Assembly: GCA_964016885.1 (NCBI GenBank)
Contig: OZ024743.1
Span: 50,654,001 to 50,718,000 of the forward strand
Source: Eledone cirrhosa
Taxonomy: Eukaryota
Direction: 5' to 3'
Length of the DNA: 64,000 nt
Of the stretch, positions 1,487 through 20,910 are shown piece after piece (within the stretch, counting starts at the first letter, position 1; the number at the start of each line of letters is the position of its first letter). A program made the translations under genes and the position numbers. The notes beneath the pieces are model-generated. The model saw only the letters and a program-made list of their open reading frames with translations. It did no database searches and was not told where the DNA came from.

Positions 1487-2050
1487 TTCTTATTTGCTAA
1501 ACCTTGATTATATATGTTCTGGCTCGTTAATTTATTAACTAGCCATTGAACCACATTGGCATATGGTTGGACAATACATGTGTCCCTGGACGCTTTTTGC
1601 GTGTAGGGATATATACTTTATTATTATTAATCTCCTCTTGGTCGAGAAAAAATTTGGTCGTTTTGACTGCTGCTATTTATAGTGATAGTAGACTGACCTC
1701 CCTGCCTCTGCTTCTATCTTTACACACGGCACTGGACAGAATTGTTTCCACATCATACATTCTCATCTCGGAAACAATTTTGAATAGCGCCAGTTCGTAA
1801 TTTGAACTCGAGAATTTTATATTCTCCGAGTGAAAAGAACCTTCTGACGAGAGTTTATCTTTAAAATGGAAGGCCGCAAGGACTGTCCATTTATTTTTGA
1901 GACTCGAAACCGATTCGGTAAAGGTAACCATAGTGAGTACAGTGAATTTTTTGAAATTTATTTTGAAACTTTTTCTTATTTGCTAAACCTTGATTATATA
2001 TGTTCTGGCTCGTTAATTTATTAACTAGCCATTGAACCACATTGGCATAT
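1487..2050 (+). mobile_element. 486-bp HHR-bearing monomer with ~77-bp terminal direct repeats (retrozyme-like family R1)
   Basis: TATTTGCTAAACCTTG...CCACATTGGCATAT at ~1487-1564 and ~1973-2050; diverged homolog at 20406-20910. Confidence 0.8.
1839..1925 (+). ncRNA. Type I HHR, intact core
   Basis: ACCTT-CTGACGA-GAGTTT...AGACTC-GAAA-CCGATTCGG-TA-AAGGT. Confidence 0.85.
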
Positions 2051-2319
2051 ATTGATGAATAAGGAGAAAATGAAATATATAGTATTACCTACAGCAATTT
2101 TTATCACTAAAAACTGTTTCGCTAGAGGATGTCTGAGGAAATAGTCCAGGTTGTTCGGTTCACAATCGTAAGATCCTCAGTTCGAATCGCGGTGAAATGT
2201 AATTTTTTGTCAAGTTGCTTCAATTCAAAAGAGTTGGACCTGTAATTCAATGACTGTGTCATGTCTACGCGAATCTCCTTCAGTATATATCTTTCTGATA
2301 TGATCAGTCACTTACCCTA

Positions 2320-2482
2320 TAATTGTTTCTACTTTTGGCACAAGGCCAGCAATTATCCCAGTGTATTACTGGTACTTTATTTTATCGACACCATAAGGAT
2401 GAAAGGCGGGATTTGAACTCAGACCATAAAGGGCCGTAACTCTATGCTGCAAAGCATGGCGTCAGACTCTCTACTGATACTG
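2320..2482 (-). mobile_element. SINE family A
   Basis: B-box (GAGTTCAAATCCC on - strand) plus the conserved body and tail. Confidence 0.85.
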
Positions 2483-2967
2483 AATACAAAATGAACTGTA
2501 CCTGTAATTCAAAGAGCCATCATTGTCACACTGAATCTCCACGAGAATTACGTTATGGCCACATGTGTCTGTGGAATGCTCAGCCATTTACAAATTAATT
2601 TCCTGTACAGGCTGTCGAGACAAGCGCAGATCCAACACACACACACATATACATATACATACACACACATAAATACAAACACAGGCACGCTAGCACACAC
2701 AAACATACATATTTATCTAGAAATGTATCGCATGGTGACACATTGAATAGAGGAAGAACACTAATCTATTAGTAAAGTATAACTTCATTGAAGATAATAT
2801 TGTCTGTATAATATCGATACGGCAGTATCGATATTATACAGTGAACAAAGCAATAAATAGGAAGATATTGTTGGTAACAGCGAGGTGAAATATGAACAAC
2901 AACTTAATTGTAAAATATCAAAGATAGAAAAATGCCAACGTTTTTGTAGTTTCTGATAATTCTTTAG

Positions 2968-3145
2968 AAAATTGTTTCTACTTTTGGCACAAGGCCAGCA
3001 ATTATCCCAGTGTATTACTGGTACTTTATTTTATCGACCCCGTAAGGATGAAAGGCAAATTTGAACGCAGATCATAAAGGGGTGTAACTCTATGCTGCAA
3101 AGCGTCCAACTCTCTACCGATACTGCCAATCCACCGTCCACCATA
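2968..3145 (-). mobile_element. SINE family A
   Basis: Near full-length match to the window consensus. Confidence 0.85.
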
Positions 3146-4104
3146 ATTCTTGAGAAAATGTTTGATTTATTTCACTGCTTTAAACAATACATTTACTGCT
3201 AATCCTTTGGATATTGTCTTGCTTTCTTTTGAGGACACTTCAGTTGCGTCGTTAATCTTCTTCTTTGAGATAAAGAAATCTTGGAATAATCTGTCAATAT
3301 TGTATATTTTGTTTTTTACAATCCTTCTATTGACAATTCTGAGAGAGTCTGCCGCAGTATCATATAATATTATCAATGGCCAATCCACCGACTATTGAAG
3401 AAATCAAAAAGGCAACCGCACAGGTAATGCCCTGGGGTTAGATAAAATTCCAGTCGAATTATTGAAAGCTGGAAGAGTCCACATATCATCGGCTATCCAT
3501 GTATTTCTCGTGAAATGTTGGGAACACTAATACCACATGACGGGGTTGATGGAATCTCGATCACCATCTAAAATGGTTAAGGAAAATAATCCAATTATAA
3601 CAACTTTCGTGAGATTACAATTCTGAAGTCTGTTGAAAAAGTAATATTTTGGCTGATGCTAAATCGCCTTTCAGAAAGTATATGTCCATTGATTCTCTCA
3701 GAAGTTCAATCTGGAAGGTGAGCAATGGATATGATCTCAATTAGACAGCTGCAGGAAAAATACATAGAACAGTACATACCTTTGTATCAAGTTTTTTTTT
3801 ATCAACTTTTGATACAGTCTACAGAGAAATCTTATGGATCATTCTTAGTAAATTGAATGTCTACAAACAATTTTGCAGATCTTCAAACAACTACATCAAG
3901 ACATGAAGGCCAGGGTTGTATTTAATGGAAAACTCTCGGAAGAAATTTCTGTGGACAACGGTGTTAAGCAAGGGGACATTCCTGCTCCAAAACTATTTGC
4001 AATATACCTTACCGTTCTCCTTGTTTATGCATTCCATAACTGTAATCGAGGCAGAAATACTCGTTTTCGAACATCTGGGCGAGTCTTTAATTGAAGATTT
4101 AATA

Positions 4105-4312
4105 ATGGTTTCTTGTATAGGCACAAGGCCAGCAATTTGGGGGAGGGGGAAAGTGGATTAAATCGACCCCAGTACGTGACTGGTACTTCATTTTATCGAC
4201 CCCGTAAGGATGAAAGGCAAAGTTAACCCCGACGGGATTTGAACTCAGACCATAAAGGGCAGTAAATCTATGCTGCAAAGCATGGCGTCCGACCCTCGAT
4301 CGATACTGCCAA
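4105..4312 (-). mobile_element. SINE family A inserted in the RTE
   Basis: Matches the SINE consensus; RT reading resumes after it. Confidence 0.85.
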
Positions 4313-4639
4313 TTCAAATTGGTGACATTCAATGTGTTGATCCGAGAACTTTCGTATGCTGATGACTTTGTTGCACACTCAGAAGCAGACATGCAGTACA
4401 CGATGGATACATTTTCTGAAGCATCTGCTCTTTTGGGGATCACTGTAAACTTAACTACGACCATGATAACCTTATGGTGTGTGTGTGTGTGTGTGTGTGT
4501 GTGTGTGTGTGTGTGTGTGTGTGTGTGTGTGTGTGTGTGTGTGTGTGTGACAGCTCACACCTATGCAGGTTTAGGTGACCTCCTCCAAGGTATATCTCGT
4601 TGGAGGTGTCTTGGGTAATTTAATGATAGGGACCTCAGT

Positions 4640-18819: not shown

Positions 18820-18955
18820 GTTACGGCCCTTTATGTTCTGAGTTCAAATCGCGCCAAGGTTAACTTTGCCTTTCATCCTTACGGGGTCGATAAAATAAAG
18901 TACCAGTAATGTACTGGGATAATTGCTGGCCTTGTGCCAAAAGTAGAAACAATAA
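18820..18955 (+). mobile_element. SINE family A, 5'-truncated
   Basis: B-box plus conserved body. Confidence 0.85.
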
Positions 18956-19324
18956 TTTGTTTCACTGTTTCACTGTGACAGTCATCAACCAATCAAATTA
19001 CACTTATAAAAAAACAATAATTTGAGCCACATTTTTTAAGGCAAATACAACACGAACAGGCGCGACATTTATTGTACTTATTCACGTGACAGTGATCAAC
19101 CAACCAAAATACTTTTTTTTAAACCCCAGCAACTTGAGCCATTCTATCCACATAAAACAGAAAGAACTTTCGAACACGAATCAGATGCGAGACAAATCAC
19201 AAACCCTCCATCTCAATCATACTTTTGAAAAACATAGAACTGTGAAACCAGTAAAGAAAATAAATGAATATTCTTAAAAAGACTCCAGCTGCATTTTCGA
19301 TTTCTTTTCCTAAAATATATATAT

Positions 19325-19790
19325 GGGTGTGCTGAATAGTTCATAGGCTGACTATGAAGGAGTGATGCAAGAGCTGTAAAATCTTGCATGCATTAATTTC
19401 AACTGTTTGCATAGTTTCTTTCCTTGAAATTGGACAACATTCGTCATCATCGTGTTATCAAGTACCTACAGAAAAGGGGTTTATACCCCGAGGACATTCA
19501 TGCTCACAAGATTAGGGGATGACGCTAGAGATTTATCAACTGTACTAATGTGGGCAGGTGAATTTAGGAGGAGATGGAAGAGTGTTAAAGATAACCCAAA
19601 TTTGGACGTCGTGTGCCACCATTGAGGTTAACATTAATACCACAAGGTGGTGGATGACAGCCGATTGACTGTAAATCAAATAACCATTGCTATCAGCATA
19701 CCTTATGGGAGAGTTGAGAATAGTCTACACAATGAACTTGGCGAATGTTTCTCTTCGGTGGCTGCCAGGTCTTCTCACACACGATCAAAC
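19325..19790 (+). mobile_element. Mariner transposon 5' remnant (shorter duplicate at 17195-17385)
   Basis: Frameshifted HRVIKYLQKRGL.PEDIH, STV..WAGEF, ERVEN.LHNELG, RWLPGLLT (WVP..L motif); starts after TA. Confidence 0.75.
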
Positions 19791-20024
19791 TATATTTTCA
19801 TGTGTTTGTTCTATGTATAATATATATATATATATAATGTATGTATGTATACTTTTACTTTTACCTATTCCAGCCATCCGGCTGAGGCCATGGTGGGGCA
19901 TATATACATATATGTATGCATATGTTTATGTAATTACATACATATATATATATGTGTGTGTTTGAATGCGTGTAGCTTCATTACTCGTTGTAGTAACGTG
20001 TATTATATATATATATATATATAT

Positions 20025-20384
20025 AAAGAAAAAGAGATGAAATCGAAAATGCAACTGGAGTCTTATTTTTTTTTTAAATATATATATTTATTTGGTTCCT
20101 TTACTGGTTTCGCAGTTCTTCTGCTTTTCAAAAGGTGAGTTGAGATGGAGGGTCTGTGGTTTTTCTCACAGATGTGAGAAAAACCACAGACCCTCCATCT
20201 CAACTTACCTTTTGAAAAGCAGAAGAACTGCGAAACCGGTAAAGGAACCAAATAAATATATATATATTTTTTTTAAAAATAAGACTCCAGCGCATTTTCG
20301 ATTTCATCTCTTTTTCTTTATACTTTCACTCGTGTAGGACACCTCGGTTATTTTTCATTTTGTAAAAAAAACCTCACTTTCTAA
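20025..20384. mobile_element. Fold-back HHR element (family F3, U3-A8 core) in (TA)n
   Basis: Palindrome ~20025-20321 centred ~20171; CCTT-TTGAAAA-GCAG/CTGC-GAAA-CCGG-TA-AAGG at ~20208-20245. Confidence 0.8.
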
Positions 20385-20405
20385 TATATATATATATATA
20401 TATAT

Positions 20406-20910
20406 TATTTGCTAAACCTTGTTTATATTTGTTCTGGCTCGTTAATTTATTAACCTGCCATTGAACCACACTGGCATTTGGTTGGACAATACATGCGTAC
20501 CTTAGCGCCTTGTGCGTGAAGGAACACATATCCTATTACTACTATCTCCTCTAAGTTGAGAACAAATTTGGTCGCTCCGACTGCTGCTAGTGATAGCTGC
20601 GGCTGGTTTGACCTACCTCCTTCTGCCTCTATCTTTACTTCGGCCCTTGATAAACCTGTTTCTACATCATCCACTCTCATCCCAGGAACAGTTTTGATAG
20701 CGCTAGTTCGTAATTTAAATTCAGGAATCTTATATTCTTTGAATGAAAAGAACCTTCTGACGAGAATCTTTCTTTGCAACGAAGGCCGTATGGTCTCCGT
20801 TTTATTTTTGGGATTCGAAACCGATCGGTAAAGGTAACTATCGTAGGTAAAGTCAATTTTTTAAAATTTATTTTGAAACTTTTTCATTATTTGCTAAACC
20901 TTGTTTATAT
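20406..20910 (+). mobile_element. 482-bp HHR monomer with terminal direct repeats (family R1)
   Basis: TATTTGCTAAACCTTGTTTATAT at 20406 and 20888; HHR at 20752-20835. Confidence 0.8.
20752..20835 (+). ncRNA. Type I HHR, intact core
   Basis: ACCTT-CTGACGA-GAATCT...GGATTC-GAAA-CCGATCGG-TA-AAGGT. Confidence 0.85.

What the first reader, a model, noticed from the sequence alone, without database searches (positions are those of the whole stretch)
1487..20910. Retrozyme-like family R1: ~485-bp monomers with covarying HHR stem II
Seen: two diverged copies (1487-2050 and 20406-20910), each one unit plus a terminal direct repeat, starting at the same register after (TA)n. Core and stem I are identical, while stem II changes compensatorily (GAGTTT/AGACTC versus GAATCT/GGATTC). 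Inference: selection on ribozyme structure; the monomer-plus-overlap layout fits reverse transcription of a circular or multimeric RNA.
Basis: partly seen in the sequence, partly recalled or inferred. Interest (0 to 1): 0.82.

Follow-up and report, generated by a model that had tools for sequence, protein, structure and literature searches.

The report
Penelope-spread hammerhead retrozyme, long helix II
These are two of roughly two thousand copies of a non-coding mobile repeat in an animal genome that carries a hammerhead self-cutting-RNA motif with an unusually long, predicted knotted arm and was likely copied around by Penelope-type retrotransposon enzymes; it is a variant of a known kind, and cutting is untested.

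Summary
The two copies are real: 486- and 482-bp units, 81% identical, each with a type I hammerhead on the + strand. The family has 2,690 exact hits to one 17-mer (control 0). Covariation holds: 20 double compensatory changes on a 27-sequence tree, against 1-3 at slid registers.

The 'same 5' register' is not a family trait. Of 184 segments, 166 end at two fixed 3' sites about 110 nt apart, nearly all in (TA)n. 5' ends scatter, and 40 of 50 inverted joints pair one short end with one tailed end. That is Penelope-like (PLE) insertion anatomy. No ORF, shared 5' flank or coding partner was found. 69 of 87 unbiased segments read through an intact cleavage site, so the template was a circle or an uncut multimer.

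Variant features, all predicted: a 49-55-nt helix II whose internal loop pairs with the strand 5' of helix I, and a conserved downstream hairpin that captures helix I. RNA and cleavage are untested. The scan reported similar families earlier on other DNA. Verdict: non-LTR retrozyme, new variant.

The parts
1459..1486 (.). (TA)n target microsatellite at the 5' side of copy 1
1487..2050 (+). Copy 1: one 486-bp unit (1487-1972) plus 78 nt of the next unit; atypical 3' end
   Evidence: right junction also in DNA-like contigs
1516..1624 (+). Unit segment that forms the ~110-nt 'tail' in other copies; holds a hairpin whose closing stem is near-invariant across sister families
1806..1831 (+). Predicted hairpin just 5' of the hammerhead, with compensatory changes
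   Evidence: helix 1: 96% of cells paired, 2 pairs with double changes
1831..1838 (+). Purine strand predicted to pair with the helix II internal loop at 1858-1865 (pseudoknot); 5 bp in this copy, 8 bp in its subfamily medoid
1839..1925 (+). Type I hammerhead of copy 1: helix I 1839-1843/1921-1925, core 1844-1850, helix II domain 1851-1905, helix III 1909-1919, predicted cleavage after 1920
1921..1991 (+). Predicted long hairpin after the cleavage site whose base captures the 3' strand of helix I; the usual short 3' end lies about 10 nt past it
20384..20405 (.). (TA)n at the 5' side of copy 2
20406..20910 (+). Copy 2: one 482-bp unit plus about 23 nt, ending at the family's usual short 3' end
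20752..20835 (+). Type I hammerhead of copy 2: core 20757-20763, helix II domain 20764-20816, palindromic helix III, predicted cleavage after 20830
20831..20902 (+). Predicted post-cleavage hairpin of copy 2
20906..20922 (.). (TA)n at the 3' end of copy 2 (inferred priming site)

Best explanation
R1 is a non-coding, multi-copy repeat of 482-486 bp with one type I hammerhead motif per unit, two fixed 3' ends in (TA)n, scattered 5' ends and inverted partner copies, and it is likely a non-LTR retrozyme copied in trans by the enzyme of a Penelope-like element (most likely Hydra clade). Inferred cycle: (1) tandem units are transcribed on the hammerhead strand, probably by Pol II. (2) The hammerhead would cut while the RNA is being made, its helices I and II held by a predicted pseudoknot from the helix II internal loop. 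(3) The monomer would be ligated into a circle, in which a downstream hairpin would capture helix I and keep the ribozyme off. (4) The PLE endonuclease would nick (TA)n, and the freed TA primer would anneal at a UA-rich site just past that hairpin (short end) or about 110 nt further on (tail end). (5) The RT would copy round the template for a variable length, and a second priming from the opposite strand would use the other site, giving inverted short-plus-tail insertions. Shown: anatomy, covariation, read-through of cleavage sites. Inferred: transcription, cleavage, circles, off-state, identity of the partner.
For: 184 segments in 122 independent loci: 110 short, 56 tail, 18 other 3' ends; 157 of the 166 regular ends abut (TA)n. 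Of 50 inverted joints, 40 are short+tail, 2 short+short, 0 tail+tail, 8 involve an irregular end; 40 of 42 is about 4e-12 under independent choice (hand calculation). This matches the PLE anatomy in PMC8557442. The fixed ends lie on the hammerhead strand. 69 of 87 unbiased segments pass one cleavage site and 15 pass two. Natural tandems of 3+ units hold no ORF. Covariation: 96.5% of cells paired, 23 double-change cells, 0 of 500 shuffles as high; 20 double changes on the tree against 1-3 at slid registers. Sister families with periods of 457-478 bp keep the same fold and end types. A coding PLE family here shows the same two-end pattern in (TA)n. ORFs of related copies carry the DKT and CxCX5C motifs given for Hydra in PMC8557442. 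Hydra hammerheads in its File S2 mostly share the 4-bp helix III with a tiny loop.
Against: No coding partner was found: no similarity beyond AT-rich noise to 8 coding-PLE 3' regions or to 30 loci of one Hydra-like family. MRC1-type non-autonomous PLEs usually resemble their partner's 3' end. 5' ends show a weak excess near the cleavage site (15 against about 6 expected, p 0.001-0.009), which a pure circle does not predict; 12 of the 15 lie 1-6 nt upstream of the site, so a cut 5' end does not explain them either. In one search two of five measures did not beat the shuffles (pairs with a double change, 157 of 500; further pair types, 481 of 500). The hammerhead region alone is no more stable than shuffles (z -0.3 to -1.4). 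The pseudoknot is only 5-6 bp in the two window copies, and the copy-2 group's own pairing (5.5) is weaker than its cross-pairing with the copy-1 group's loop (8.5). The cross-family test of the off-state pairing was not specific. 8 of 9 Xenopus retrozyme dimers did not cleave in vitro.
Confidence: 0.8

Rival explanations
1. Same element and same enzymes, but the template is a linear, mostly uncut multimeric transcript from tandem master loci; circles play little part.
For: Weak excess of 5' ends near the cleavage site. Tandems of 3+ units exist. Helix III is short and palindromic in several families, a form reported to need dimers (PMC4209133).
Against: No sharp pile-up at the cut position, and segment lengths decay smoothly past one and two sites. 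No long array was seen among 122 loci. Units of long tandems share private variants (24 of 95 tandem pairs), which fits repeated copying of one template but also local duplication.
Confidence: 0.12
2. The unit is the pLTR or 3' end of an unseen coding PLE, and the copies are 5'-truncated insertions of it.
For: The anatomy is that of coding PLEs. Only about 140 of some 2,000 loci were inspected, and the genome holds many PLE families (53,778 first-look candidates).
Against: Segments longer than one unit continue into another unit, never into an ORF. 25 informative 5' flanks share no common sequence at the junction. All genuine sister loci among 30 fetched are unit-only, with one chance match.
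Confidence: 0.06
3. A SINE-like or satellite-like repeat whose hammerhead is a passive relic, spread by LINE enzymes or by DNA recombination.
For: LINE-type RT fragments are present in the window (family assignment recalled). Units form short tandems.
Against: No Pol III A/B boxes on the sense strand, several T5 tracts and no tRNA-like head. No poly(A) tail. Two fixed 3' ends with strict short+tail pairing. Strong covariation.
Confidence: 0.02

Closest known systems
Metazoan non-LTR retrozymes (Cervera and de la Pena 2020, PMC7229834; Li et al. bioRxiv 10.64898/2026.07.22.740005)
   Same: Non-coding, low-GC (0.36-0.38) tandem unit with one type I hammerhead; structured monomer; co-occurs with PLEs; proposed PLE mobilisation.
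   Different: Unit slightly above the 150-450 bp of the 2020 paper (inside the 51-972 bp of the 2026 preprint). Mostly dispersed truncated insertions, not long arrays. Helix II domain 49-55 nt. A predicted self-pairing that blocks helix I, which the 2020 paper reports as absent from most animal retrozymes. Expression and cleavage are not shown here.
EN+ Penelope-like elements, Hydra clade (Craig et al. 2021, PMC8557442)
   Same: (TA)n targets, 5' truncation, partial tandems, inverted 5' copy, tail at one end, hammerhead near the 3' end with a 4-bp helix III and tiny loop (File S2).
   Different: No RT-EN ORF. Tail about 110 nt against 30-40 bp described (about 66 nt in the coding family seen here). 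No sequence similarity to the coding families sampled.
Non-autonomous Chlamys elements such as MRC1 (PMC8557442)
   Same: Non-coding PLE dependants with pLTRs and head-to-tail copies.
   Different: Those generally resemble their partner's 3' end and most Chlamys lack canonical hammerheads; R1 has a conserved hammerhead and no identified partner.
Pseudoknotted hammerheads (Perreault et al. 2011, PMC3088659) and the long-loop-2 hammerhead of PLE-X1_sMoe (PMC8557442 File S2)
   Same: Base pairing between the helix I and helix II regions replaces the loop-loop contact (about 40% of hammerheads there). A 53-nt helix II region is already listed for PLE-X1_sMoe.
   Different: Here the pairing strand comes from an internal loop of a long helix II, opposite a conserved U tract; no description of this arrangement was found in the passages read.

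Membership tests
Metazoan non-LTR retrozyme | Type I hammerhead in the repeat unit | tested here: met
Metazoan non-LTR retrozyme | Head-to-tail units of a few hundred bp, at least two consecutive hammerheads | tested here: met
   Family level: L027, L038, L071 and others. Each window copy holds only one hammerhead.
Metazoan non-LTR retrozyme | Non-coding, GC under 50% | tested here: met
   Stops in all six frames of 6 of 6 stretches; 2 antisense open frames without Pfam match; GC 0.36-0.38
Metazoan non-LTR retrozyme | Self-cleavage in vitro | not testable with these tools
   Needs a bench assay
Metazoan non-LTR retrozyme | Unit-length linear and circular RNA in tissues | not testable with these tools
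   No RNA holder listed
EN+ Penelope-like element (insertion anatomy) | Fixed 3' end, 5' truncation, partial tandems, inverted 5' copy, one-sided tail, microsatellite target | tested here: met
Autonomous Penelope-like element | ORF with RT and GIY-YIG endonuclease joined to the pLTR | tested here: not met
   None of 122 R1 loci or the sister loci
Non-autonomous PLE of MRC1 type | 3' similarity to an autonomous family | tested here: inconclusive
   None among 8 coding 3' regions and 30 loci of one family; most PLE families of the genome were not sampled
Canonical type I hammerhead (Rfam models) | Short helix II with a terminal loop, scoring at gathering threshold | tested here: not met
   0 Rfam hits in the window; helix II domain 49-55 nt
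Pseudoknotted hammerhead | Covarying base pairs between the helix II loop and the helix I region | tested here: inconclusive
   Mean best run 6.1 bp against 4.1 in shuffles (0 of 1,000), family-specific for group D; 4-9 bp, with mismatches in the copy-2 group
SINE | Pol III promoter or tRNA-derived head | tested here: not met

The most novel reading that the evidence does not exclude
A switchable hammerhead. The internal loop of a 50-55-nt helix II clamps the strand 5' of helix I by a pseudoknot, reinforced by U-A-U base triples from the conserved U tract on the other side of the loop. A conserved hairpin just after the cut site then captures helix I, so the circle stays closed and presents the PLE priming site. 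The strict short-plus-tail pairing would make the family a readable record of two-site priming by Penelope RTs on a circular template.
Probability: 0.25. Interest if true: 0.65.

Novelty: new variant of a known kind. Interest (0 to 1): 0.42.

Why it matters
The 2020 paper left two points open: which enzyme moves animal retrozymes, and how their circles avoid cutting themselves. This family gives insertion-level evidence for PLE mobilisation in an invertebrate, which the 2026 preprint did not examine. It also offers a concrete, testable off-state. Hammerheads of this size escape Rfam, so such families are probably undercounted. The class itself is known, and the scan has noted similar families before.

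Tried and rejected
Rfam at gathering threshold: 0 hits in the window. The repeat finder was swamped by satellites. Sequencing runs: no RNA holder listed; the three runs of one study looked like whole-genome DNA contigs and say nothing on expression.

Same 5' register as a family trait: rejected. 5' ends as a fossil of cleavage: inconclusive. Partner search: negative; one profile hit beside a PLE (L195) proved to be a separate sister-type repeat beyond a (TA)n block. Within-locus divergence did not separate circle from multimer (0.024 tandem and 0.039 inverted, against 0.020-0.023 to the nearest other locus, a minimum-biased control).

A conserved GT-R-AG after the cleavage site was considered as a splice donor; it is also explained by the hairpin and was not tested further. 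RNAalifold on the 27-sequence alignment missed proximal helix II because of register shifts between families, so core-anchored counting was used. Circular-fold z-scores (sense -0.7 to -7.4) rest on only 12 shuffles, and the antisense strand scores similarly in several monomers. Pfam did not name the PLE proteins (1 weak RVT_1 hit of 9); the Atlas gave HTH_animal clusters. No look-alike notes by sequence. PMC5785218 is not held, and the 2020 paper's supplement could not be read.
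Full report
Observation. The window lies in a 3.0-Gb animal genome of 1,796 contigs; 'octopus-like' is my guess from the repeat landscape, not a tool result. Copy 1 (1487-2050) and copy 2 (20406-20910) align at 81% and are the only family members in the window. Periods are 486 and 482 bp. Each holds a type I hammerhead on the + strand, with predicted cleavage after 1920 and 20830. Helix II is a 53-55-nt domain: 6 proximal pairs, an internal loop and distal stems. Copy 1's region folds as a hammerhead at minimum free energy; copy 2's does not, and neither beats shuffles. Rfam has no hit.

Family. Searches with each copy gave 2,757 and 1,727 first-look candidates, 40 scored each. 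A 17-mer at the 3' end has 2,690 exact matches against 0 for the control. Its first 100 matches fall in about 70 insertions, so about 1,900 loci (my estimate). I fetched 60 best-hit loci and 75 position-ordered stretches. After dropping 12 duplicate stretches and pieces under 79% identity, the script reported 122 loci (57 best-hit, 65 position-ordered) and 184 segments. One listed insertion on C1 was not fetched, and three were already among the best hits. Identity to the window copies runs from about 77% to 99%, so the family was active over a long time.

Anatomy. 110 segments end about 80 nt past the cleavage site (short end), 56 end about 190 nt past it (tail end) and 18 end elsewhere. 157 of the 166 regular ends abut (TA)n. 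5' ends scatter over the whole unit. Of 50 inverted joints, 40 join a short-ended to a tail-ended segment, 2 join two short ends, none joins two tails and 8 involve an irregular end. This is the PLE pattern described in PMC8557442 (passages). The fixed ends are on the hammerhead strand, so that strand is the inferred template. Copy 1's 78-nt overlap comes from a rare third end (2 of 184).

Template. 69 of 87 position-ordered segments extend more than 10 nt past a cleavage site and 15 past two. A cut linear monomer could give at most 80 or 190 nt, so the template was a circle or an uncut multimer. 5' ends within -6 to +5 of the site number 15 against about 6 expected (p 0.001-0.009 by flank width; a -3 to +3 window gives p 0.04-0.09). 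Twelve lie upstream of the site, so this is inconclusive. Long tandems share private variants between units, which does not separate the models.

Coding partner. Segments longer than a unit continue into another unit. 25 informative 5' flanks share nothing at the junction. No real similarity was found to 8 coding-PLE 3' regions, to the stretches downstream of endonuclease hits in the loci then held (only the top of that comparison was printed) or to 30 loci of one family. That coding family has its own small hammerhead and two end types about 66 nt apart in (TA)n. ORFs of related copies show DKT and CxCX5C, motifs given for the Hydra clade (section 11). Hydra hammerheads in File S2 (part 2 of 59 read) mostly have the 4-bp helix III with a tiny loop seen here. 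Hydra is therefore the likeliest partner clade; this is inference.

Covariation. A helix III pattern (2,372 matches against 861 control) and locus flanks gave sister families with periods of 457-478 bp and the same end types. From 31 clusters I kept 25 medoids, dropping 6 chimeric, deleted or redundant ones, and added the two window copies. Core-anchored counting shows several pair types at most positions of helices I and II. On a tree there are 5 + 15 double compensatory changes, with 13 breaks, against 1-3 doubles at slid registers. On 17 closer sequences 96.5% of cells pair, and 23 double-change cells exceed all 500 shuffles, while two type-counting measures do not. This is not R-scape.

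Variant features (predicted). The 5' strand of the helix II internal loop is complementary to the purine strand before helix I: mean best run 6.1 bp against 4.1 shuffled, 0 of 1,000; group D pairs best with itself (7.3 against 3-5). The pairing is only 5-6 bp in the window copies. The opposite loop strand keeps a U tract in all 27, which would allow U-A-U triples; that idea rests on recalled triple-helix motifs and is untested. In most of 20 post-cleavage sequences from six groups, a long hairpin forms whose base takes part of helix I's 3' strand. In context, helix I probability falls from 0.82 to 0.0 in copy 1 and from 0.80 to 0.52 in copy 2, without the pseudoknot in the model. The cross-family specificity test of this pairing was flat.

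Comparison. The element meets the testable features of non-LTR retrozymes (PMC7229834, parts 1-4 of 6 read; bioRxiv 10.64898/2026.07.22.740005, parts 1-3 of 5). Pseudoknots are common in hammerheads (PMC3088659, passages). A 53-nt helix II region is listed for PLE-X1_sMoe. Palindromic helix III and dimer cleavage are described (PMC4209133 and PMC6765202, passages). 'Long helix II' in PMC13725137 means 6 bp (passages). Seven searches found no description of this family or of an internal-loop pseudoknot with a U tract. The unread 2020 supplement, the closed preprint supplements, PMC5785218 and repeat databases could hold one.

Verdict. A real, structurally selected, PLE-type mobile repeat; a new variant of a known kind. 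Earlier notes of this scan describe similar families; they are not independent support. Interest 0.42.

Noticed in passing
window 20926-21640 (-): A different repeat with a unit of about 640 bp (also L070, L107, L032, L115, L132) sits next to copy 2 and shares a diverged form of the tail hairpin; probably a distant relative.
   Followed up: partly
window 1143(-), 1264(+), 7935(-), 25542(-), 25899(-), 26709(-), 36108(-), 36216(+), 52548(-), 52644(+): Ten small hammerhead motifs of one AT-rich type with helix II regions of about 20-32 nt, several in inverted pairs, all missed by Rfam. Copy 1 is inserted at the (TA)n end of one such repeat.
   Followed up: partly
window 46109-47649 (-): Broken PLE reverse-transcriptase remnant similar to the Hydra-like family.
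   Followed up: partly
window near 24041 (-) and 48082 (+): Endonuclease ends of another PLE group; in some copies the 3' tail of about 60 nt matches the start of the ORF, i.e. the element reads as circularly permuted.
   Followed up: no
L195:337-600 (-), also L105, L106, L108, L134: A further repeat family with a hammerhead-like motif, a ~51-nt helix II region and the same tail hairpin closure.
   Followed up: no
R1 units (copies 1 and 2, L030, L040, L084): No AATAAA on the hammerhead strand in 5 of 5 stretches, but 3-13 on the opposite strand; fits Pol II read-through, though base skew may explain it.
   Followed up: no
window 60778-63925 (+), 5258-5920 (-), 58173-58847 (-): Open frames that look like LINE endonuclease/RT and transposase fragments (names recalled, not searched).
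   Followed up: no
G000, Hydra-like family of L030:2731-3483: 53,778 first-look candidates and open frames up to 722 aa: Hydra-like PLEs are very abundant here, whereas PMC8557442 lists few molluscan families.
   Followed up: partly
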